A stretch of DNA of 64,000 nucleotides, from positions 1,235,666 to 1,299,665 of the forward strand of contig CAWIXB010000001.1 in assembly GCA_963839955.1 (NCBI GenBank), given 5' to 3'. Positions 14,976 to 24,318 of this stretch are shown here, one piece after another. Both the position numbers and the translations under genes were made by a program. Source of the DNA: an uncultured Actinomycetota bacterium (GTDB lineage Bacteria; Actinomycetota; Actinomycetes; JACCUZ01). The notes beneath the pieces are model-generated. The model had not been told where the DNA came from. It worked only from the letters and a program-made list of their open reading frames with translations, and searched no databases. The first letter of the stretch is position 1. Each line of letters begins with the position of its first letter.

Positions 14976-16445
14976 ATGACCGAGCCAGCTAGAGGCGTTG
15001 AGACAGCACAGATGACTTCCGTTCCCTACCGGGCAGAGGCGCAGCCGCACGACGGCGAGCAGCGCGATCTGGCCGACCGCCAGGCGCTGCGACGCGTCGC
15101 CGGGCTCTCGACCGAGCTCCAGGACGTCACCGAGGTCGAGTACCGCCAGCTGCGCCTGGAGCGCGTCGTGCTCATCGGCGTCTGGACCGGGGGCTCCATC
15201 GAGGCGGCCCAGAACTCGCTGGCCGAGCTCGCGGCGCTCGCCGAGACCGCTGGTGCCGTGGTGCTCGACGGGCTCATCCAGCGCCGCGACCGGCCGGACA
15301 CGGCGACGTACGTCGGCTCCGGGAAGGCGCGCGAGCTGCGCGACATCATCGTCGCCGAGGGCGCCGACACGCTCGTGTGCGACGGCGAGCTGACCCCCGG
15401 CCAGCTGCGCCAGCTCGAGGAGGTCGTCAAGGTCAAGGTCATCGACCGGACCGCGCTGATCCTCGACATCTTCGCCCAGCACGCCAAGAGCCGTGAGGGC
15501 AAGGCGCAGGTGGAGCTGGCCCAGATGGAGTACATGCTCCCGAGGCTGCGCGGTTGGGGTGAGTCGATGTCCCGCCAGGCCGGCGGTGCCGGAGGCTCCG
15601 GCTCCGGGGGCGTGGGCACCCGCGGCCCGGGCGAGACCAAGATCGAGACCGACCGGCGTCGGATCCGGACCCGGATGGCCAAGCTGCGCCGTGAGATCGG
15701 CGGCATGAGGACGGCGCGCGACACCAAGCGTCAGGAGCGCCGCCGTCACGAGGTGCCCTCGGTCGCGATCGCGGGCTACACCAACGCCGGCAAGTCCTCG
15801 CTGCTCAACCGGCTCACCGACGCGGGCGTGCTGGTCGAGAACGCGCTCTTCGCCACCCTCGATCCGACGGTGCGCCGCGCGCAGACCCCGGACGGCCGCG
15901 ACTACACGCTCTCCGACACCGTCGGGTTCGTCCGCCACCTGCCCCACCAGCTCGTCGAGGCCTTCCGCTCCACGCTCGAGGAGGTCGGCGGCGCCGACCT
16001 GCTGCTGCACGTCGTCGATGCGTCCGACCCCGACCCCGAGGCGCAGCTCGCCGCGGTGCGCGAGGTGCTGGCCGACGTCGACGCCCACGACGTCCGCGAG
16101 GTCGTCGTCGTGAACAAGGCCGACGTCGCCGCACCCGAGGTCGTCGATCGGCTGCTGCTGCGCGAGCCGCACGCCGTCGTCGTGTCGGCGCGCACCGGCC
16201 AGGGTCTGGAAGGGCTGCGGGCGCTCATCGCCGACGAGCTGCCCAAGCCGTCCGTGCCGGTCGACGTCCTGGTGCCCTACGACAGGGGCGACCTCGTGTC
16301 ACGTGTGCACGACGAGGGCGACGGCATCGAGGCCGAGCACGTCGCCGAGGGGACGCGGCTGCGGGCGAGGGTCACCCACGCCTTGGCCGGCGAGCTCGCC
16401 GCCTTCAACGGCAACGGCAACGGCAACGGCAAGCCCAAGCCCTGA
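14976..16445 (+). CDS. hflX: GTPase HflX
   Basis: The HflX N-domain and G-domain are present (GYTNAGKSSLLNRLT, DTVGF). The C-terminus ends in an NGNGNGNGKPKP tail. The start is uncertain: ATG 14976 or ATG 15012. The track start at 14901 is probably too far upstream. Confidence 0.85.
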   Translation: MTEPARGVETAQMTSVPYRAEAQPHDGEQRDLADRQALRRVAGLSTELQDVTEVEYRQLRLERVVLIGVWTGGSIEAAQNSLAELAALAETAGAVVLDGLIQRRDRPDTATYVGSGKARELRDIIVAEGADTLVCDGELTPGQLRQLEEVVKVKVIDRTALILDIFAQHAKSREGKAQVELAQMEYMLPRLRGWGESMSRQAGGAGGSGSGGVGTRGPGETKIETDRRRIRTRMAKLRREIGGMRTARDTKRQERRRHEVPSVAIAGYTNAGKSSLLNRLTDAGVLVENALFATLDPTVRRAQTPDGRDYTLSDTVGFVRHLPHQLVEAFRSTLEEVGGADLLLHVVDASDPDPEAQLAAVREVLADVDAHDVREVVVVNKADVAAPEVVDRLLLREPHAVVVSARTGQGLEGLRALIADELPKPSVPVDVLVPYDRGDLVSRVHDEGDGIEAEHVAEGTRLRARVTHALAGELAAFNGNGNGNGKPKP

Positions 16446-16505
16446 CCCCCACCCCCACCCCCACCCCCACCCCCACCCCCACCCCCACCCCCACCCCCAC
16501 CCCCC
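16446..16505. repeat. (CCCCCA)~10 hexanucleotide microsatellite immediately 3' of the hflX stop
   Basis: Read directly: cccccacccccaccccc… runs for about 60 nt. The complementary strand is (TGGGGG)n, which is capable of forming a G-quadruplex. Confidence 0.9.
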
Positions 16506-16518
16506 GGCTCCCAACCCC

Positions 16519-16941
16519 GTGGTGATCATGCAGTTGTGCAGCTGCGCCTCTCTCACCTGCGCAAACTCCAGTGGTGATCATGCAGTTGTGCAGCACGCCC
16601 TGGACTGACCGCCGCACGCGTCGCTGGCGGACCGGGTCCCGAAGATCGCAACCAGGCCCCACAAAGGTGTCGGCATCGGGCCCGAGGCACGCTCACCGTG
16701 AACGACCGAGCGAGGTAAAGGCTCGCGTTGTGGGGGCTGTTGCGATCACCCAAGGAGCGGGCGGAGACAGACGGGACAGAACCGGCGAGATGACGCGGCC
16801 GGGCGAGCAGCGACCGATCAGGCGCCCCCGGCCCGTCGAGTACGCCGGAGCGTTGCCGACCAAGGGCTGCACAACTGCATGATCACCGCACGGGTTTGCG
16901 CAGGTCAGAGCGTTGGTCCGGCACAACTGCATGATCACCGG
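16519..16941. mobile_element. MITE-like inverted-repeat element of about 420 bp: four copies of the 21-mer GGTGATCATGCAGTTGTGCAG (two direct on the left, two inverted on the right) plus a shared CCTGCGCAAAC sub-motif
   Basis: Copies lie at 16521-16541 and 16573-16593 (forward), and at 16867-16887 and 16921-16939 (reverse complement). CCTGCGCAAAC at 16556-16566 matches GTTTGCGCAGG at 16894-16904. The interior (16594-16866) has no credible gene. Confidence 0.6.
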
Positions 16942-17126
16942 TGAAGGGTGGGGTGGCGGGTGGGTGAGAAGGCGGCAAGTAACAGAGAGTAACTGTGCGA
17001 TTACGGTGCCGGATTTGTCTGTAGGCCCGTTCTCGGGCTTCGCCAATCCGTCGATCCTCCCGTGGCCGAACGAGTGTCGCCACCGCTGTGACGCCGTCAC
17101 AGCCACTCACCCCTCGGGAGGGGACC

Positions 17127-18665
17127 ATGTCTCGATCGAGACAGCCCGCACGGGCACGCGCAGTCGCGCTGCTCGGCGTGGGCACACTGCTCGTCGGCGG
17201 CGGCCTCGCCGGCCTCGCGCCCGGCGGCGCCACCGCATCAAGTCACCGGGAGGCCCCGGCCATCTCGGGGATGCCGGAGTACGACAACACCGACACCTAC
17301 GCGTTCGTCAGCCCGGACAAGCCCGACACGGTCACCCTCGTGGGGTCCTGGATCCCGTTCGAGGAGCCGGCGGGCGGGCCGAACTTCTACCCGTGGGCAA
17401 CCGACGCCCGCTACAACATCAACATCGACAACGATGGCGATGCCAAGCCGGACATCACCTACCGGTGGAAGTTCAAGAACAAGCGCACACCCGGCCCGGC
17501 GGACAGCTTCACCGGCAACGGCACGTTCCTGCACAACAACGGGCCGGTGACGTCGCTCAACGACGCGAACCTGCTCTTCCGGCAGACCTACGACCTGCGC
17601 AAGGTCAGCTACAACAACGCCGGGTACGTCACCAGCCGCCGCACCTTGCTCGACGACGCGCCCGTGGTGCCGTCGCGTGTGGGGAATGCGTCGATGCCGA
17701 ACTACGACGCGCTGTTCAACGCGGGGATCAAGAGCGTCACCGGCGGGATCAAGTCCTTCGCCGGCCAGTCAGACGACCCGTTCTTCCTCGACCTGCGCGT
17801 CTTCGACCTCCTCTACGGCGGCAACCTGTCCGAGGTCGGTAACGACACCCTCGCGGGGTTCAACGTGAACACCCTCGCCCTGCAGGTCCCGAAGGCCAAG
17901 CTGACCGCCGGCGACCCGGTGATCGGCGTGTGGAGCACGACGGACCGCCGCAACGCGCACGGCGCCTACAGCCAGGTGTCGCGACTGGGCAACCCGTTGG
18001 TCAACGAGGTGGTCGTGCCCTACCGGGTCAAGGACGCGTTCAACGCCTCCAAGCCGACCGATGACGGTGCGGCTGCCCCGCTGGTCACCAACCCGGAGCT
18101 CGCGAAGATCATCCAGGCGGTCTACGGCATCCCGGCCCCCAAGACACCGCGCAACGACCTCGTGTCGGTGTTCCTCACCGGTGTCGCCGGGCTGAACAAG
18201 CCGGCCAGTGTCACGCCGAGCGAGCAGCTCCGGCTGAACACGTCGATCAAGCCGTCGACGTCAAAGAAGCGGCTCGGCGTCATTGACGGCGACAACGCCG
18301 GGTTCCCCAACGGCCGTCGCCTTTCCGACGACGTGGTCGACATCGCCCTGCAGGTGGTCGAGGGCGAGCTTGTCGGCTCGAAGAACGACCTGGGTGACGC
18401 GGTGAACCAGAACGACAAGGAGTTCCGGAGGAGCTTCCCGTACGTCGCCACGCCGCACTCCGGGTCGACCGTGAATCCGCACAAGGTCAACAAGGGCTTC
18501 ACGGCCCTGACCGGCGGCAAGGCGCCGGACACCCCGGCAGGGGGCGGGCTCACCGACAGCCCGGTCGCCCCTGTCGCGCTGATCGGAGTCGGCGCGCTGT
18601 TGCTGGCCGCTGGTGCATTCGCCACGACCAGGTGGACGCGACGCCCGCACGTCGCGACTGCCTGA
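17127..18665 (+). CDS. DUF4331-family secreted protein with a C-terminal membrane anchor
   Basis: The signal peptide is followed by the signature ATASSHREAPAISG motif of DUF4331. The C-terminus contains a hydrophobic helix, PVAPVALIGVGALLLAAGAFATTRW. ATG 17127 has a GGGAGGGG RBS. The track start at GTG 17088 is an alternative. Confidence 0.75.
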   Translation: MSRSRQPARARAVALLGVGTLLVGGGLAGLAPGGATASSHREAPAISGMPEYDNTDTYAFVSPDKPDTVTLVGSWIPFEEPAGGPNFYPWATDARYNINIDNDGDAKPDITYRWKFKNKRTPGPADSFTGNGTFLHNNGPVTSLNDANLLFRQTYDLRKVSYNNAGYVTSRRTLLDDAPVVPSRVGNASMPNYDALFNAGIKSVTGGIKSFAGQSDDPFFLDLRVFDLLYGGNLSEVGNDTLAGFNVNTLALQVPKAKLTAGDPVIGVWSTTDRRNAHGAYSQVSRLGNPLVNEVVVPYRVKDAFNASKPTDDGAAAPLVTNPELAKIIQAVYGIPAPKTPRNDLVSVFLTGVAGLNKPASVTPSEQLRLNTSIKPSTSKKRLGVIDGDNAGFPNGRRLSDDVVDIALQVVEGELVGSKNDLGDAVNQNDKEFRRSFPYVATPHSGSTVNPHKVNKGFTALTGGKAPDTPAGGGLTDSPVAPVALIGVGALLLAAGAFATTRWTRRPHVATA

Positions 18666-18675
18666 CCAGATGAGT

Positions 18676-18712
18676 CGCCCGCCCGGCTGCGGCACTCCGC
18701 AGCCGGGCGGGA
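18676..18712 (+). terminator. strong GC hairpin (about 15-bp stem, 5-nt loop) between the DUF4331 gene and the TPR gene: an intra-operon attenuator or partial terminator
   Basis: Read directly: cgcccgcccggctgcgg-cactc-cgcagccgggcggga. There is no U-tract. The downstream gene starts 24 nt later with its own RBS (GAAGGAAA). Confidence 0.4.
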
Positions 18713-18735
18713 GACCGGGAAGCGAAGGAAACCGC

Positions 18736-20064
18736 ATGACGCCTCTGCTGAGGACGATCCGCGTGGCACTCGTCGTCGTCACGCTCAGCGCGATCATCAC
18801 GCTCGCCGCCACCATCTCTCTGGGTGGCGCGGCCGACGACCGTCGCGGTGCCGTGCCACAGGAGCCGGTCGCGTTGCAGCGGCTGGGCTCCTCCGACCTC
18901 TCCGCCGTCGTTGCCGGGCTGCAGCAAGGGCTGCGCGCGCAGCCCGAGGACGAGCGCGCGTGGTCCACGCTCGCCCTCGCCTACGTCGAGCAGGCCCGGG
19001 TCACCGCGGACCCCAGCTACTACCCGAAGGCCGAGCGCGCTCTTGACCGGGCCGCCCGGCTGTCGTCCGGCGACGACCTGATGCTCACCGGTCGCGCCAC
19101 CCTCGCCGGGGCTCGCCATGACTTCACCGCCGCACGCGCGTTCGCTGACCGCGCGCTGCGAACCAACCCCTACAACGCGCAGGCGCACGCCGTACGGTCG
19201 GACGCGCTCACCGAGCTCGGCCGCTACGCTGCCGCGTCCGCGGCCGCAACACGCGCCGACCAGCTGCGGCCCGGCGACGGCACATTCGCACGGCTGTCCT
19301 ATCAGGCGGAGCTGCGCGGCGACCTGGCCGGCGCGATGCGGCTGATGCGTGCCGCACAGACAGCGGCGGCCAGGCCGGAGTCCTTCGCGTTCGCGGCCGC
19401 CCACCTCGGCGAGCTGGCCCGCGCGTCCGGAAGCACGCGCGCCGCCGCGCGGCACTTCGCCGCTGCCCTCGACGCCGACCCCGACAGTGGTGCGGCGCGA
19501 GTCGGCCGGGCCCGGCTCGCCGTCGCCCGCGGCAACATCGCTCGCGCCGAGCGCGACTACCTCGCCGTCGTACGCCGGCTGCCTCTGCCCGAGTACGTCG
19601 TGGAGCTGGGCGAGCTCTACCAGGCGAGCGGTCGGCCCGAGCAGGCCCGGCGGCAGTACGCCGTGGCCGCCGCCTCGGCCGCGTTGGCCCGGTCCAACGG
19701 CGTCGGCACCGACCTCGAGACGGCACTCTTCGAGGCCGACCACGGCATCGCGAGCGAGGCGCTTCGCGCGGCGCGCGACGAGTGGGGTCGCCGGCACAGC
19801 GTGCACACCGCCGACGCACTGGCCTGGGCCCTGCACACGTCCGGCCAGTCCGCGCAGGCCCTTCCGTATGCCCGCCGGGCAACCTCGCAGGGCAGCCAGG
19901 ACGCGCGGGTCCTGTTCCACCGCGGTGTGATCGAGGCCGCCGCCGGTGACGCGGCGCTCGCGCGCCGGTTGCTGACCCGTGCAGTCGAGGTCGACGGCGG
20001 CAGCCACCCGCTACGCGCCCAGCAGGCCCGCACGCTGCTCGCCGGCCTGGGAGAGAACCGATGA
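18736..20064 (+). CDS. tetratricopeptide-repeat protein with an N-terminal TM anchor
   Basis: ATG 18736 gives MTPLLRTIRVALVVVTLSAIITLAATISLG (TM). The remainder is Ala/Leu/Arg-rich TPR-like helical repeats. The stop overlaps the next start (ATGA). Confidence 0.7.
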   Translation: MTPLLRTIRVALVVVTLSAIITLAATISLGGAADDRRGAVPQEPVALQRLGSSDLSAVVAGLQQGLRAQPEDERAWSTLALAYVEQARVTADPSYYPKAERALDRAARLSSGDDLMLTGRATLAGARHDFTAARAFADRALRTNPYNAQAHAVRSDALTELGRYAAASAAATRADQLRPGDGTFARLSYQAELRGDLAGAMRLMRAAQTAAARPESFAFAAAHLGELARASGSTRAAARHFAAALDADPDSGAARVGRARLAVARGNIARAERDYLAVVRRLPLPEYVVELGELYQASGRPEQARRQYAVAAASAALARSNGVGTDLETALFEADHGIASEALRAARDEWGRRHSVHTADALAWALHTSGQSAQALPYARRATSQGSQDARVLFHRGVIEAAAGDAALARRLLTRAVEVDGGSHPLRAQQARTLLAGLGENR

Positions 20065-21659
20065 CGCGTCGCATGCTTCTGCGGGCTGCCGTGTTCGGCG
20101 CTGTCGCCAGCGTCGTCGTGCTGCTCGTTCCGGGCACGGCGTCCGCCCATCCGCTGGGCAACTTCACCGTGAACCGCTTCAGTGAGCTCGTCGTCGGCGT
20201 CGAGTCCGTGCGCGTCGACCACGTGCTCGACCTGGCGGAGATTCCTACCGCGCAGCGGACGCCGGCGATCGACAGCGACGGCGACAGGGCGCTGTCCCGG
20301 GCCGAGCTCGCGACCTACGCACGTGACGCGTGCGCGGACTCGGCCGACACGCTGTCGTTGACCGTGGCGGGCAGGCCGGTCGCGCTCGACGTGCGCCGGT
20401 CGACAGCCCGCACCGTGGCCGGACAGGCCGGACTGCCGACGATGCGGGTGCACTGTGCTCTGTCGGCATCGACGCCGACCCTGGCCGGCCCGCGCGGCGT
20501 TTCCCTCGTGGACACCGCCGCCGACGCGGAGATCGGCTGGCGCGAGATCATCGCCGTCGGCGACCGGACGACGGTTGTCGAGTCGGACGTGTCGGCCCGC
20601 AGCACGAGCCGGCGGCTGACCCGCTACCCGGCAGACCTCTTGTCCAGTCCGCTCGATGTGCGCGCGGCGAACGTGCGCGTGACGCCGGGCGGTCCGGCCC
20701 TCGGTGACAACGCAGACGTGGGGGGCACTGGACTGCCCACCAAGCGCCTGACGGGGGCGTTCGAAGGTCTGGTGACCACCTACGACGGAAATCCGTTGGT
20801 CGTCCTCGGCGGCCTGCTGGCGGCGCTCGCCCTGGGCGCGGCGCACGCCCTCGCGCCGGGGCACGGCAAGACCGTGATGGCCTTCTACCTGAGTGGTCCG
20901 CGCCAGGGCGGCGTCCGCGCCGCCGGCACGGTGGCGGCAACCGTGACCGTGACGCACACGGCCGGTGTGCTGCTGCTCGGCGTGCTGGTGAGCGCCGGCA
21001 CCGGCTTCGTGCCCGCCCGGCTCTATCCGTGGCTCACGGTCGCGAGCGGGCTGCTCGTCGCCGCGGTCGGCGTCACCCTCCTTCGCGCTGCGCGCCACCC
21101 GCACACCCACGAGCATCCGCACCCGCACGCGCACGCACAGGCGCACCGCGATGTCGTGCCCGATCACGCGCGCCTGCCGGTGCTGGTCGGTGCAGCGACG
21201 CAGGAGCACGCCGAGACCGCGCACGGGCACCGCGACGACGGGCATCGTCACGACCACGGCCGTCACCACGACGCCCGCCACCACAGCGGCCATGACCACG
21301 ACGGCGGTCATCACCAGCACCGGCCCGCCTCGCGCCGCTCGCTGATCGCGATCGGGATGGCCGGCGGTCTGGTCCCGAGCCCGTCCGCGCTGGTCGTCTT
21401 CCTGGCCGCACTAGCCGTCGGGCACGCCTGGTTCGGCGTACTCCTCGTCGTCGCGTTCGGCCTCGGCATGGCGGTGACGCTCTCCGCCGTCGGGCTGCTC
21501 GTGATGCGGCTCCGGACCAGGTTCGATGGCCGGCTCGCCAGCCGGGCCGGGTCGCGCGGCGCCCGCGTGTTGCGAGCCCTGCCGCTCGTCACCGCATGCT
21601 CGGTGCTGGTTCTCGGCCTCGGGATCGCGGCACGAGGAGTCGGCGTCATCGGCGGCTGA
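20061..21659 (+). CDS. RcnA/NicO-family nickel/cobalt-type permease fused to an N-terminal periplasmic domain with an EF-hand-like loop
   Basis: The N-terminus has a signal peptide plus DSDGDRALSRAEL (a canonical DxDxDG EF-hand loop). The C-terminal half has 6 TM helices with the NicO motifs HALAPGHGKT and GLVPSPSA. A His-rich loop (HPHTHEHPHPHAHAQAH…HGHRDDGHRHDHGRHHDARHHSGHDHDGGHHQH) lies between TM3 and TM4. Confidence 0.7.
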   Translation: MTRRMLLRAAVFGAVASVVVLLVPGTASAHPLGNFTVNRFSELVVGVESVRVDHVLDLAEIPTAQRTPAIDSDGDRALSRAELATYARDACADSADTLSLTVAGRPVALDVRRSTARTVAGQAGLPTMRVHCALSASTPTLAGPRGVSLVDTAADAEIGWREIIAVGDRTTVVESDVSARSTSRRLTRYPADLLSSPLDVRAANVRVTPGGPALGDNADVGGTGLPTKRLTGAFEGLVTTYDGNPLVVLGGLLAALALGAAHALAPGHGKTVMAFYLSGPRQGGVRAAGTVAATVTVTHTAGVLLLGVLVSAGTGFVPARLYPWLTVASGLLVAAVGVTLLRAARHPHTHEHPHPHAHAQAHRDVVPDHARLPVLVGAATQEHAETAHGHRDDGHRHDHGRHHDARHHSGHDHDGGHHQHRPASRRSLIAIGMAGGLVPSPSALVVFLAALAVGHAWFGVLLVVAFGLGMAVTLSAVGLLVMRLRTRFDGRLASRAGSRGARVLRALPLVTACSVLVLGLGIAARGVGVIGG

Positions 21660-21670
21660 GCGTGCCAGCA

Positions 21671-23539
21671 CTACCCGTCAGTGCTCTCCTCAGCGCGGCT
21701 CTCCTGCGCCCGGCCACCGAGGTGCTGGGCGAGGAAGCTCTCCGCGGCGGCGTAGAACGTCTCGCGGTTCTCCGGCTTCGCCAGTCCGTGCCCCTCGTCG
21801 GGGAAGAGCAGGTAGTCGTGCGGCAGGCCCTTCTCGACGAGCGCTGCGACGATCTGCTCCGCCTCGGCCTGCTTGACCCGCGGGTCGTTGGCGCCCTGCG
21901 CGATCAGGACGGGGATGCGGATCGCGTCGACGTGCGCGAGCGGCGAGCGGTCCCAGAGCATCTCGCGTTCGTCGTCGGGGTGACCGATCCGTTGGTAGAG
22001 CATGGCTCGCATCGGCGCCCAGTAGTCGGGGATCGACGACAGCAGCGTCAGCAGGTTGGACGGACCGACCAGGTCGATCGCGCAGCGGAACACGTCAGGT
22101 GTGAAGGCGGCGCCGGCGAGGGCGGCGTACCCGCCGTACGACCCACCCATGACGGCGACCCGGTCACGGTCGACCCAGCCCTGCGCGACGACGTGGTCCA
22201 CCGCGTCGACGAGGTCGTCCTGCATCGCGCGCCCCCACTGCTTGTCGCCCGCGCCGAGGAAGGCCTTGCCGTAGCCCGTCGAGCCTCGGTAGTTGACCTG
22301 TACCGACACGTAGCCGCGGTTCGCGAGCCACTGGGCGTCGGGCGAGTAGCCCCACCGGTCGCGCACCCACGGCCCACCGTGAACATCGAGCACCGCGGGC
22401 AGCGCGGACCTGTCCACGCCGCGGGGGAAGGACAGGTAGCCGTGCACCGTGAGCCCGTCGCGTGCCCTGAAGGAGAACGGCTCCATCGGCGCGAGCTCGT
22501 GCTCCTCGAGTTCTTCGCGGTGCGCGAAGAGGTACGTCGTCGCGCCCGACGCGCGGTCGTAGACGTAGAACCTGGTCGGCCCGTCGGAGACCGACAGCGA
22601 GACCAGCCACCGCGTGTCGGAACGCTCCTGCCGGTCCACCCCGAGCTCACCGTCGCCGAGTGCGTCCAGACGGGCGAGGTCGGCGTCGAGAGACGCGTCG
22701 AGCGGGACGACGCGGGCGCGTTCCTCGTCGTAGACCACGGCCTGGGGCAGCCGGGTCTTCGGGTCGCGCCACACCTCCGCCACGTCGTAGACCGGGTCCC
22801 CGGCGACGACGGTGCGACTCCCGTCGCGGAGGTCGACGCGCACGAGCCGCGTCGCGTTCGCGTCCATCGAGGTGAGGACGTACAGCTCCTTGTTGTCGCG
22901 GTCGAAGCCGATGACGTCCGTCGTGGTCGCGTCGTCGGCGGGCACCTCGAGGAACGGCTGGTAGTCGTCGTCGCCGGACCCGGTGCGCCGCAGGAACGTC
23001 ACGCCGCCGTCCGGCTGCATGGTCATCCCGCCGCGCATCCACAGGTCGGTGTCGACCAGCCACGACACGAACCCCGGGTTGGTGGCCTCCTTGATGAGCG
23101 TGCCGCTCGTGAGGTCGAGCCGGTAGAGGTCGTGCAGCTGCGGGTTGTCCTGGTTGAGCCCGATCAGCATCGTCGTGGGGTGCCACCTGTTGTGGGCGAG
23201 GATCTGCGCGGTGACCTTGCGTTCCGGGGTGAGCAGACGTACGTCGCCGGTGGTGAGGTCGAGCGCATAGAGCCGCCAGTCCTCGTCGCCGTCGGTGTCC
23301 TGCAGGTAGACGAGGTGCCGGTCGTCGTGGCAGAAGAGAAACGTGCGGATGCCGCGGTCGCGGTCGTGGGTGACGGGTTGCGGCGGCCGGCTGCCGTCGG
23401 CAGGGCCCACCCAGACGTTGAGCACGCCGTTCTCCGGGGCTATGAAGCCGAGCAGGCTGCCGTCGGGGGACAGGCAGGGCGACATCCGGTCGGGGTTGCC
23501 GAACAGCACCGAGCGCGGGATCAACGGGGGAAGCGGCAT
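21671..23539 (-). CDS. S9 family peptidase (prolyl oligopeptidase/acylaminoacyl-peptidase-like)
   Basis: It has an N-terminal beta-propeller region and a C-terminal alpha/beta-hydrolase domain with the nucleophile motif GGSYGGY and a downstream Asp/His. Confidence 0.85.
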   Translation of the reverse strand: MPLPPLIPRSVLFGNPDRMSPCLSPDGSLLGFIAPENGVLNVWVGPADGSRPPQPVTHDRDRGIRTFLFCHDDRHLVYLQDTDGDEDWRLYALDLTTGDVRLLTPERKVTAQILAHNRWHPTTMLIGLNQDNPQLHDLYRLDLTSGTLIKEATNPGFVSWLVDTDLWMRGGMTMQPDGGVTFLRRTGSGDDDYQPFLEVPADDATTTDVIGFDRDNKELYVLTSMDANATRLVRVDLRDGSRTVVAGDPVYDVAEVWRDPKTRLPQAVVYDEERARVVPLDASLDADLARLDALGDGELGVDRQERSDTRWLVSLSVSDGPTRFYVYDRASGATTYLFAHREELEEHELAPMEPFSFRARDGLTVHGYLSFPRGVDRSALPAVLDVHGGPWVRDRWGYSPDAQWLANRGYVSVQVNYRGSTGYGKAFLGAGDKQWGRAMQDDLVDAVDHVVAQGWVDRDRVAVMGGSYGGYAALAGAAFTPDVFRCAIDLVGPSNLLTLLSSIPDYWAPMRAMLYQRIGHPDDEREMLWDRSPLAHVDAIRIPVLIAQGANDPRVKQAEAEQIVAALVEKGLPHDYLLFPDEGHGLAKPENRETFYAAAESFLAQHLGGRAQESRAEESTDG

Positions 23540-23632
23540 GGTCGAAACGATATGTCCGAGCTTCGACGCGCAAGTGGCGCGGCCCGCCCCGGAAGGGCCG
23601 GCCGCGCCACGAGCACGGTTGGGCTGCTCCGG

Positions 23633-24178
23633 CTATCCGAGGATCGCCAGGATCTGATTGAGCAGCGAGGCAAGCTGACCGAGCAGACCGTTCAGCCCGG
23701 TGCCGTCCAACAGGCCGGCCACGGCGCAGAGCAGGTTGCCGAGCAGGTTGCCCGGGCCCGGTTCCGCGGTGATGTTCAGGTGCACGGTGTCCAGGTGCAC
23801 GACGAGGCCGAGCAGGTCGAGGTCCAGCGGGCCGAGCACCAGGTCGAGGATCTGGCACGAGCCGGTGCTGGCTGCCGTGTTCACCGGCAGGGTCACTGTC
23901 TCGTCGACGGCCCGGGTGCCGCCCGCCGCGCTGGTCAACGTGCCGGTCAGCTCACCGACGGCCACCAGGTCGCCGTCCTGCACCGCAAACCGGCTCGGGT
24001 CGAACGTGCCCTTGAACGTCCCGCCGTCACTGGTGCTCCCCGTCACCGGGGCGGTCGCGGGGGCGGCCGTCGCCGCACTCGTGGCCGCGTTCGAGCTGGT
24101 CGCGGCCGCTGCGCCGACGAAGAGCAGGGTCGACAGGCTCACCACGACGGCGAGCAGCCGGATCAGTCGTCCGGTCAT
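23633..24178 (-). CDS. secreted hypothetical protein (Ala/Thr-rich N-terminal linker, Leu-rich C-terminus)
   Basis: The 181-aa ORF has the signal peptide MTGRLIRLLAVVVSLSTLLFVGAAAA. No recognisable domain was found. Confidence 0.45.
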   Translation of the reverse strand: MTGRLIRLLAVVVSLSTLLFVGAAAATSSNAATSAATAAPATAPVTGSTSDGGTFKGTFDPSRFAVQDGDLVAVGELTGTLTSAAGGTRAVDETVTLPVNTAASTGSCQILDLVLGPLDLDLLGLVVHLDTVHLNITAEPGPGNLLGNLLCAVAGLLDGTGLNGLLGQLASLLNQILAILG

Positions 24179-24318
24179 GTGGATTCCTTTCTTCGGGGCG
24201 GGGACACCTTGGCCAACGAGGCGCTTCGGCAGCCGCTACGGCCTACTGGCGAGTAATTACGCAACATCCGTGTGACGTATTTCACGACCGCCCCGGCACG
24301 CTCAGTAGCCGGAGGCTT

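What the first reader, a model, noticed from the sequence alone, without database searches (positions are those of the whole stretch)
16519..16941. MITE-like element of about 420 bp: four copies of a 21-bp motif arranged as two inverted direct-repeat pairs
GGTGATCATGCAGTTGTGCAG occurs twice on the + strand (16521 and 16573) and twice as its reverse complement (16867 and 16921). One copy on each side is extended by the same CCTGCGCAAAC motif, so the outer roughly 40 bp form imperfect terminal inverted repeats around a 270-bp non-coding core. This is the architecture of a miniature inverted-repeat transposable element or an IS remnant. Alternatively it could be a large structured RNA, or a cluster of four sites for a regulator. 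It lies exactly at the junction where the DUF4331 island meets the conserved hflX gene, next to a microsatellite, which suggests a recombination hotspot.
Basis: seen in the sequence. Interest (0 to 1): 0.6.

Follow-up and report, generated by a model that had tools for sequence, protein, structure and literature searches.

The report
Hairpin repeat of a dispersed actinobacterial family
The 420-bp inverted-repeat element after hflX is real and is one copy of a widespread, apparently undescribed family of hairpin repeats that sit just after gene ends in high-GC actinobacteria, and the only gene type found bracketed by such repeats encodes a DNA-binding nuclease-like protein that may be what spreads them.

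Summary
The 21-mer occurs four times (one copy has one mismatch), where chance predicts none. It forms 74-nt inverted arms, 84% complementary, around a 271-nt centre.

The element is not a one-off. A metagenome scan returned at least 78 high-GC loci that share the core C(G/C)GTGATCATGCA. In those loci:
- the core occurs in tandem direct arrays and in inverted arrays;
- each lineage has its own arm extension, and the two arms stay complementary;
- a C-rich tract lies 5' of the arrays and a G-rich tract 3';
- the arrays usually start 5-90 nt after a stop codon.

The neighbouring genes are unrelated housekeeping genes. Near-identical copies lie on different contigs of one metagenome.

I found no target-site duplication, no transposase partner, no Rfam family and no paper that mentions the motif. 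The centre is non-coding filler. Homologues of the DUF4331 gene lack the motif upstream.

New lead: every AbiEi-wHTH plus DUF559/Vsr-like nuclease gene that I found in actinobacterial loci, except one, is bracketed by hairpin repeats. Three carry this core and one carries a variant core in a relative of the window organism. In Tsukamurella the bracketing hairpin also occurs at about 8 other sites.

Best reading: a non-autonomous, REPIN/MITE-like copy. The classical MITE reading is only partly supported. The way the family spreads is inferred, not shown.

The parts
16445..16520 (+). C-rich 5' tract: (ACCCCC)x10 microsatellite plus CCGGCTCCCAACCCCGT. It starts at the last base of the hflX stop codon (TGA, 16443-16445).
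   Evidence: tandem repeat finder; 79% C and 4% G. Family-wide C-rich tract upstream of + arrays.
16521..16541 (+). Repeat copy 1 (outer left): core GGTGATCATGCA plus extension GTTGTGCAG.
16553..16566 (+). Block B (TCACCTGCGCAAAC) inside the left spacer. It is the second conserved block of this subfamily.
   Evidence: Related GCAGGTCA / CCTGCGGAAAC blocks occur in L099, L050, L025 and L004.
16573..16593 (+). Repeat copy 2 (inner left).
16521..16594 (+). Left 74-nt arm of the inverted repeat.
   Evidence: I1, 84% complementary.
16595..16865 (.). Central 271 nt: non-coding, non-conserved filler that contains its own local hairpin.
   Evidence: GC3 is 0.68-0.73 in all six frames, against 0.92-0.95 in the flanking genes; z = -1.25; no homologue in any locus.
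16866..16939 (-). Right 74-nt arm of the inverted repeat.
16867..16887 (-). Repeat copy 3 (inner right).
16894..16907 (-). Block B' (reverse complement: TGACCTGCGCAAAC) in the right spacer.
16919..16939 (-). Repeat copy 4 (outer right), with one mismatch.
16940..16967 (+). G-rich 3' tract that mirrors the C tract. It contains the G-quadruplex-type motif GGGTGGGGTGGCGGGTGGG at 16946-16964.
   Evidence: 65% G and 3% C.. Family-wide G-run enrichment.

Best explanation
What it is. The element spans about 16445-16967. Its parts, in order, are a C tract, two direct 21-mers, a 271-nt filler, two inverted 21-mers and a G tract. I read it as a non-autonomous copy of a dispersed family of extragenic hairpin repeats in high-GC Actinomycetes. 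The family is defined by the near-invariant core C(G/C)GTGATCATGCA.

Shown for the family:
- It is multi-copy, next to unrelated housekeeping genes.
- Near-identical copies lie at different loci of one metagenome.
- The arm extensions differ between lineages but stay complementary within an element.
- Half-arms form tandem arrays.
- C-rich and G-rich flanks are present.
- Arrays are placed a few to tens of bases after stop codons.

Shown as an association. Genes for a protein with an AbiEi-type winged-helix domain and a DUF559/Vsr-like nuclease-type domain are bracketed by such hairpins. Three cases carry exactly this core. One carries a variant core in a relative of the window organism. Six carry other hairpin sequences in Tsukamurella and Arthrobacter.

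Inferred mechanism. By analogy with RAYT genes flanked by REP sequences, this protein recognises the core through its DNA-binding domain and cuts with its nuclease domain. Gene-less hairpin copies like the one in the window would then be copied or maintained in trans. They persist where they do little harm, right after genes.

Inferred local effect. The 74-bp stem between a C-rich and a G-rich tract would act as a barrier or 3'-end structure that separates hflX transcription from the DUF4331 operon.

My probabilities: member of this repeat family 0.9; the family spreads as non-autonomous mobile DNA 0.55; the AbiEi-DUF559 protein is the cognate factor 0.4; terminator or barrier effect at this locus 0.4.
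For: Family membership and dispersal.
- 78 of them are high-GC, with 91 clusters and 300 copies. Both orientations occur in 45 of 91 clusters, against 2 of 47 in the unrelated low-GC hits. The base before the core is C in 82%, against 18%.
- When copies are found through their extension rather than the core, core positions 1-11 are 96-100% conserved in 285 copies.
- In 43 inner arm pairs the extensions match 10.1 of 14 positions, against 5.3 of 14 for arms taken from different loci. There are 32 distinct extensions.
- About ten copies of one variant from one metagenome align with unrelated flanks.
- The 124 neighbouring ORFs hit 155 Pfam families, and none occurs in more than 3.
- 40 high-confidence genes end 90 nt or less before a co-oriented array.
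- G-rich outward flanks: 2.45 against 0.75 G3 runs per 45 nt, and a G4 motif in 15 of 118 against 0 of 474.
- The same subfamily, including block B, occurs in L099, L050, L025, L003 and Microbispora L004, which matches at 80% over 70 nt.

Block conservation in the window. The four 21-mers are identical at 83 of 84 positions, while the spacers match at only about 61%.

Candidate partner gene.
- L033, L081 and L116 are bracketed by this core.
- L137 was fetched through HflX only, and it shows the variant core.
- Of 8 genes found by protein homology alone, 7 have matching flanks, against 4 of 80 control genes. Fisher's exact p = 4e-7.
- The Tsukamurella hairpin is found on 7 further records of the same genome.
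- Domains: AbiEi_1, MTES_1575 and DUF559; conserved ES..E, D and E.DG..H columns; weak profile hits to Vsr-like nucleases.
Against: - No AbiEi/DUF559 gene lies in the 64-kb window.
- There is only one element in the window, and none in about 21 kb around hflX in each of five loci from four related genomes. Multi-copy status in this genome is therefore untested.
- No target-site duplication, and the element ends are fuzzy.
- No empty site was found, so mobility is inferred from dispersal only.
- About half of the clusters have one orientation only, so a hairpin is not obligatory.
- Pfam hits for the nuclease domain are below the curated cut-offs, and the PDB hits are weak.
- The three gene-bracketing cases with this exact core come from loci selected for containing the repeat.
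- Repeats flanking a gene could be its own operators rather than transposon ends.
- The Nonomuraea homologue shows no flanking repeat.
Confidence: 0.55

Rival explanations
1. Host-function array. The repeated core is a binding site for a conserved host DNA-binding protein, for example the actinobacterial GATC(A/T)T-binding nucleoid protein Gbn, or is part of a terminator. Under this reading, arrays at gene ends are kept by selection as transcription or replication barriers, or as anchors for nucleoid organisation. They arise by local duplication rather than by transposition.
For: - The core contains GATCAT, and the Microbispora variant has GATCTT. Both fit the Gbn motif GATCWT (PMC9239103).
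- The element is the densest GATCWT cluster in the window: 5 in 450 bp, against 42 in 64 kb.
- Arrays are oriented relative to the upstream gene and begin just after stop codons.
- One-orientation arrays exist without a hairpin partner.
- C-rich RNA upstream would suit Rho loading (own knowledge, untested).
Against: - Conservation spans 11-12 nt, far more than the Gbn 6-mer.
- The lineage-specific extension is conserved among all four copies in the window, which a shared host factor does not explain.
- Close relatives lack the motif entirely in about 21 kb each, which is odd for a housekeeping signal.
- Near-identical copies, loops included, at unrelated loci point to copying.
Confidence: 0.2
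2. Classical MITE. A deletion derivative of a DDE-type insertion sequence, whose terminal inverted repeats carry two transposase-binding sites per end.
For: Size, non-coding content, inverted ends with internal direct repeats, and family dispersal.
Against: - No target-site duplication.
- No insertion sequence with these ends among the 124 neighbouring ORFs.
- The one IS30-like element sits inside a repeat and has different ends.
- Variable periods, variable arm sequences and one-sided arrays are atypical.
Confidence: 0.07
3. Operator cluster. Four sites for a regulator of the downstream DUF4331/TPR/NicO operon.
For: The element lies 186 nt upstream of the DUF4331 start codon. It has four identical sites with 52-nt spacing.
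Against: - DUF4331 homologues at 79%, 75% and 66% identity have no core copy upstream.
- Two of them (L138, L140) share with the window a different pattern: a CCAATCC box (CGCCAATCC in the window and L138) and a TGTGAC-N-GTCAC(A) palindrome, at window 17041-17101. L139 shares only the CGCCAATCC box.
- The same core follows unrelated genes elsewhere.
Confidence: 0.03
4. Structured non-coding RNA gene, or an invertible promoter segment flanked by recombinase sites.
For: Fold z about -9.8 on both strands. A 271-bp segment lies between long inverted repeats.
Against: - No Rfam match in the window or in 15 family loci.
- The centre is not conserved and not unusually structured.
- Two independent assemblies show the same orientation.
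- No recombinase gene was called within about 7-10 kb on either side of the element.
- No sigma-70-like promoter.
Confidence: 0.05

Closest known systems
REP / REPIN elements with their RAYT genes (Proteobacteria)
   Same: Short extragenic repeats that pair in inverted orientation into hairpins, occur in many copies after genes, and attract insertion sequences. A single protein-coding gene is bracketed by the same repeats.
   Different: - No GTAG or CGTC tag.
- The single units are not palindromes.
- An 11-12-nt invariant core lies at the stem base, with variable inner arms.
- Half-arms form tandem arrays.
- C/G-tract flanks are present.
- The bracketed gene is an AbiEi-wHTH plus Vsr-like nuclease-type protein, not a Y1 (HUH) transposase.
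- A survey of tagged REPs lists no Actinobacteria (PMC3733652).
Bacterial MITEs (Correia, ERIC, RUP and similar)
   Same: Size of 100-450 bp, non-coding, inverted ends, dispersed in intergenic DNA, and possible effects on transcription.
   Different: No target-site duplication and no parent insertion sequence. The ends are arrays of a core motif rather than one terminal inverted repeat. Copy number could not be established in this genome.
E. coli BIME-1 / RIP elements that carry an IHF site
   Same: A repeat cluster that includes a site for a nucleoid-associated protein. Here the core contains the Gbn motif GATCAT.
   Different: Binding was not tested. The conserved core is longer than the Gbn motif.
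Vsr-like (PD-(D/E)xK-type) selfish nucleases such as the homing endonuclease I-Bth0305I, and TnsA of Tn7
   Same: A nuclease fold of this class is used by mobile DNA. The candidate partner protein gives weak profile matches to PvuRts1I, the DUF559 structure 3HRL and I-Bth0305I.
   Different: The matches are weak (E 0.003-0.3). There is no intron or intein context and no Tn7-like gene set. Activity is unknown.
AbiEi antitoxins (type IV toxin-antitoxin systems)
   Same: The same N-terminal DNA-binding domain family, which is known to bind inverted repeats.
   Different: There is no AbiEii toxin partner. The repeats lie on both sides of the gene and also elsewhere in the genome.

Membership tests
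MITE | Small, non-coding element with terminal inverted repeats | tested here: met
   74-nt arms, 84% complementary. No coding frame.
MITE | Target-site duplications flanking the element | tested here: not met
   No direct repeat of 5 nt or more at any boundary between 16446-16525 and 16935-16975. None in ten aligned family copies.
MITE | Many copies in the same genome | tested here: inconclusive
   One copy in 64 kb. Multi-copy status is shown only for other carriers.
MITE | Parent insertion sequence with the same ends and a transposase | tested here: not met
   Pfam scan of 124 neighbouring ORFs found none. The IS30-like element in L015 has other ends.
REP / REPIN-RAYT | Units are short imperfect palindromes tagged by GTAG or CGTC | tested here: not met
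   The unit GGTGATCATGCAGTTGTGCAG is not a palindrome and has no tag.
REP / REPIN-RAYT | Two inverted units form a hairpin; extragenic; high copy number | tested here: met
   At family level.
REP / REPIN-RAYT | A Y1 (RAYT) transposase gene flanked by the repeats | tested here: not met
   No Y1_Tnp among the neighbouring ORFs. The bracketed genes are AbiEi/DUF559-type.
Gbn (GATCWT) binding-site cluster | Presence of GATC followed by (A/T)T, clustered | tested here: met
   5 sites in 450 bp, the densest cluster in the window. Motif taken from PMC9239103.
Gbn (GATCWT) binding-site cluster | Actual binding by Gbn, and a gbn gene in this genome | not testable with these tools
   No ChIP or EMSA.
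Known structured RNA (Rfam) | Match to a curated covariance model | tested here: not met
   Only chance-level miRNA hits in the window. Only tRNA-related hits in 15 family loci: two tRNA genes and an overlapping sub-threshold Plastid-ycf2 match in L114.
Invertible promoter switch | Both orientations in populations, and an adjacent recombinase | tested here: not met
   Same orientation in two assemblies. No recombinase among the genes called within about 7-10 kb on either side of the element. Two assemblies are too few to exclude it.

The most novel reading that the evidence does not exclude
Actinobacteria harbour a REPIN/RAYT-like system of a new type. In it, genes for a winged-helix (AbiEi-type) plus Vsr-like nuclease protein are bracketed by lineage-specific hairpin repeats and seed families of gene-less hairpin copies after gene ends. 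The GTGATCATGCA-core family, which includes the window's element, would be one such family shared across several actinomycete lineages.
Probability: 0.35. Interest if true: 0.8.

Novelty: new variant of a known kind. Interest (0 to 1): 0.6.

Why it matters
Interspersed hairpin repeats are well studied in Proteobacteria, where REP, BIME and REPIN elements go with RAYT genes. The surveys I could read report none for Actinobacteria.

This family has several unusual features:
- a 12-nt core conserved across lineages;
- a fixed position after stop codons;
- flanks prone to G-quadruplex formation;
- a candidate partner nuclease.

If confirmed, three things follow. The large orphan AbiEi/DUF559 gene family would gain a testable role. 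There would be a second, independent case of a domesticated or selfish nuclease paired with its own repeats. Annotators would gain a marker for 3' ends and for variable spots in high-GC genomes. A cultured carrier, Microbispora sp. H11081, makes experiments possible.

Tried and rejected
- Genome-collection scan with the 19-mer. Only single hits. Those I read in coding sequence (L006) or in low-GC or non-actinobacterial contigs I took as chance; I did not read all of them. L003 and L004 proved related. The window's species is absent.
- Viral contig scan: 0 hits.
- Plasmid collection with the element, and with a 1.8-kb concatenate of variants: no match.
- Rfam: nothing.
- Literature searches for the 11-mers and 12-mers: only primer coincidences. 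A 2024 MITE review mentions no actinobacteria.
- Small ORF or peptide reading of the repeats: rejected, because the periods 19, 22, 25 and 52 are not multiples of 3.
- CRISPR-like mini-array: rejected, because the two spacers are homologous and the arrays are inverted.
- Homology of the central 271 nt to anything fetched: none.
- A repeat at the far end of the DUF4331 block: none.
- Enrichment of a neighbouring gene family by all-against-all BLAST: none.
- Orthologous empty-site test through P0241: no DNA was available.
- Stop-codon context TGACC: only mildly enriched, 32% against 15%.
- IS30 as the mobilising element: rejected, because it interrupts a repeat unit.

Full report
**Observation.** The 21-mer GGTGATCATGCAGTTGTGCAG is present at 16521 and 16573 on the + strand and at 16867 on the - strand, all exact. 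A fourth copy at 16919 (-) has one mismatch. Shuffles expect none. The repeat finder shows that the inverted arms are 74 nt long (16521-16594 and 16866-16939), 84% complementary and 271 nt apart.

Each arm holds two 21-mers 52 nt apart and a second shared block, TCACCTGCGCAAAC (16553-16566 and its complement at 16894-16907). The four 21-mers are identical at 83 of 84 positions. The remaining spacer sequence matches at only about 61%. So conserved blocks sit in non-conserved filler.

The hflX stop codon (16443-16445) is followed at once by (ACCCCC)x10. This left flank is 79% C. It is mirrored by a right flank that is 65% G and contains GGGTGGGGTGGCGGGTGGG. Both strands fold with z about -9.8. 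The centre alone does not (z = -1.25) and has no coding signature.

**Source and relatives.** The window's HflX equals P0001, from a 3.75-Mb contig. A second assembly (L011) of a near-identical strain carries the element unchanged.

In relatives with 81-84% HflX identity, the interval between hflX and a DinG-like helicase differs each time. It holds nothing, a GGDEF-EAL gene, a 919-aa gene, GGDEF-EAL plus an AbiEi_4 gene, or, in the window, the DUF4331/TPR/NicO/peptidase block. None of these relatives has the core motif in about 21 kb.

**The family.** The 19-mer scan of species-representative genomes gave only single hits. Two of them proved related:
- L003, an Actinomycetales MAG, has two + copies before and two degenerate - copies after a DUF349 gene, next to C- and G-runs.
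- L004, Microbispora sp. H11081, has a roughly 300-nt nested element with GTGATC(A/T)TGCA arms, the block CCTGCGGAAAC and C/G tracts. It matches the window at 80% over 70 nt.

The 42 low-GC hits are unrelated tandem repeats. The 78 high-GC loci (306 kb) share features that the search pattern did not require:
- The base before the core is C in 82%.
- Ten upstream bases are 49% C and 15% G.
- Both orientations occur in 45 of 91 clusters, against 2 of 47 in the low-GC hits.
- The outward flanks are G-rich. G3 runs number 2.45 against 0.75 per 45 nt. A G4 motif occurs in 15 of 118 flanks, against 0 of 474 controls.

When copies are found through their extension rather than the core, positions 1-11 of the core are 96-100% conserved in 285 copies. 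The arm extension differs between lineages, with 32 types, but remains complementary within an element: 10.1 of 14 positions, against 5.3 of 14 for arms from different loci.

Arrays have 1-6 direct copies with periods of 19 to 63 nt. Loops are mostly 20-80 nt, but 170-650 nt in L055, L087, L114, L099 and the window. The window's subfamily (extension CAGTTGTG, block B) recurs in L099, L050, L025, L003 and L004.

**Dispersal and position.** About ten copies of one variant from metagenome Ga0081539 align over roughly 150 nt, including the loop, with unrelated flanks. Extra copies on the long contigs suggest roughly one per 15-20 kb in such genomes. That estimate is my own and is rough.

The 124 ORFs next to elements hit 155 Pfam families. 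None occurs in more than three ORFs, and all are ordinary metabolism or housekeeping genes. All-against-all BLAST likewise finds no recurrent neighbour. Elements mostly face 3' ends of genes. Forty high-confidence genes stop 90 nt or less before a co-oriented array, often with genes converging on both sides.

An IS30-like element (rve + HTH_38) in L015 interrupts a repeat unit. The repeats therefore attract insertion sequences, as REPs do. L029 shows a local rearrangement that duplicated 21 nt of a gene end next to a truncated unit.

**What it is not.**
- No Rfam family matches.
- No target-site duplication.
- No hits in viral contigs or plasmids.
- The motif is absent from searchable literature. 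A MITE review and a REP survey list no actinobacterial families.
- DUF4331 homologues (79%, 75% and 66% identity; the nearest is a Sporichthyaceae MAG) have no core copies upstream. Two of them (L138, L140) share with the window a CCAATCC box (CGCCAATCC in the window and L138) and a TGTGAC-N-GTCAC(A) palindrome at 17041-17101, outside the element. L139 shares only the box. The element is therefore not that operon's conserved control region.

**A candidate partner.** Every AbiEi-type winged-helix plus DUF559/REase_MTES_1575 gene in the fetched loci is bracketed by these hairpins:
- L033: + + + gene -.
- L081: + + gene -.
- L116: + + + - gene + -.
- L003: a partial case.

These loci were selected for the repeat. 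L137 was not: it was fetched through HflX. There, an AbiEi_4 gene in the same hflX-to-helicase interval is flanked on both sides by hairpins with a variant core, (C/G)GTGATCCAGGCG, preceded by C-rich repeats.

Homologues found only by tblastn in the plasmid collection are in fact chromosome pieces. They show the same layout with unrelated hairpin sequences: three in Tsukamurella tyrosinosolvens, three in Arthrobacter and none in Nonomuraea. Overall, 7 of 8 homology-selected genes have matching flanks of 13-65 nt. Among 80 ordinary genes, 4 have weak 12-16-nt matches. Fisher's exact p = 4e-7.

The 65-nt Tsukamurella hairpin recurs at about eight other, mostly unannotated sites of that genome. 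The proteins align end to end and share ES..E, D and E.DG..H columns. A profile gives weak matches to Vsr-like nucleases, including a DUF559 structure and the homing endonuclease I-Bth0305I. None of the 26 listed papers (of 29) that mention DUF559 or MTES_1575 appears, from its title or abstract, to describe such an arrangement; I did not read their full text. No such gene lies in the window.

**Interpretation.** I consider it shown that the window's element is a member of a dispersed, core-defined hairpin repeat family placed after gene ends. It is inferred that the family is non-autonomous mobile DNA. It is more tentatively inferred that the AbiEi-DUF559 protein is its cognate binding and cutting factor, in analogy to RAYT and REP.

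A host-function reading remains open. The core contains the Gbn site GATC(A/T)T, and the C tract, hairpin and G tract could serve termination. However, that reading does not explain the 12-nt conservation, the lineage-specific extensions or the absence from close relatives.

Noticed in passing
window 16406-16432: A (CAACGG)x4.5 microsatellite encodes the NGNGNG tail of HflX. The two near-identical assemblies differ there by one residue, G469D.
   Followed up: partly
window 17041-17049 and 17087-17101; L138, L139 and L140 upstream regions: A CCAATCC box (CGCCAATCC in the window, L138 and L139) and a CRP-like palindrome TGTGAC-N-GTCAC(A) lie just before the DUF4331 ribosome-binding site. Both are shared with L138 and L140; L139 has only the box. 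This is probably the operon's real promoter and operator.
   Followed up: partly
window 16979-16993: The direct repeat GTAAC-AGAGA-GTAAC lies between the element and the DUF4331 promoter region. It resembles response-regulator half-sites, but the spacing is one base short of the usual 11-nt register (the comparison is from my own knowledge).
   Followed up: no
window 16446-24318, compared with L012, L133, L135 and L137: The interval between hflX and the DinG-like helicase carries different cargo in each related genome. It is a variable spot. Upstream of hflX, the window also lacks the dapF/miaA neighbours seen in relatives.
   Followed up: partly
L137 14468-14522 and 15535-15594: In a relative of the window organism, an AbiEi_4 gene is flanked on both sides by hairpins with the variant core (C/G)GTGATCCAGGCG.
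   Followed up: yes
L142 2224-2288 and 3176-3240 (Tsukamurella tyrosinosolvens NZ_LR134454.1): A DUF559 gene is bracketed by two copies of a 65-nt hairpin. The same hairpin also occurs on seven other records of the same genome.
   Followed up: yes
L015 about 420-1540: An IS30-like insertion sequence (rve + HTH_38) is inserted inside a unit of the repeat family.
   Followed up: yes
L029 1597-1617 and 1795-1815: A 21-nt copy of the upstream gene's last codons is joined to a truncated repeat unit between two elements. This indicates local rearrangement at the repeats.
   Followed up: partly
L012 11440-11465: Right at the hflX stop codon of a relative, the sequence ATGATCACGCGGGCGTGATCG loosely resembles a - copy and a + copy of the core. 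It could be a relic or chance.
   Followed up: no
core of every copy, e.g. window 16521-16530: GGTGATC is complementary to the GAUCACC part of the 16S rRNA 3' tail and is followed directly by ATG. The core therefore looks like a ribosome-binding site. The array periods are not in frame, so no peptide reading fits (own knowledge).
   Followed up: partly
PLSDB records NZ_LT559118.1 and NZ_LR1344xx: Records labelled as plasmids are really chromosomes or chromosome pieces: an 11.85-Mb Nonomuraea record and many Tsukamurella NCTC13231 fragments.
   Followed up: no
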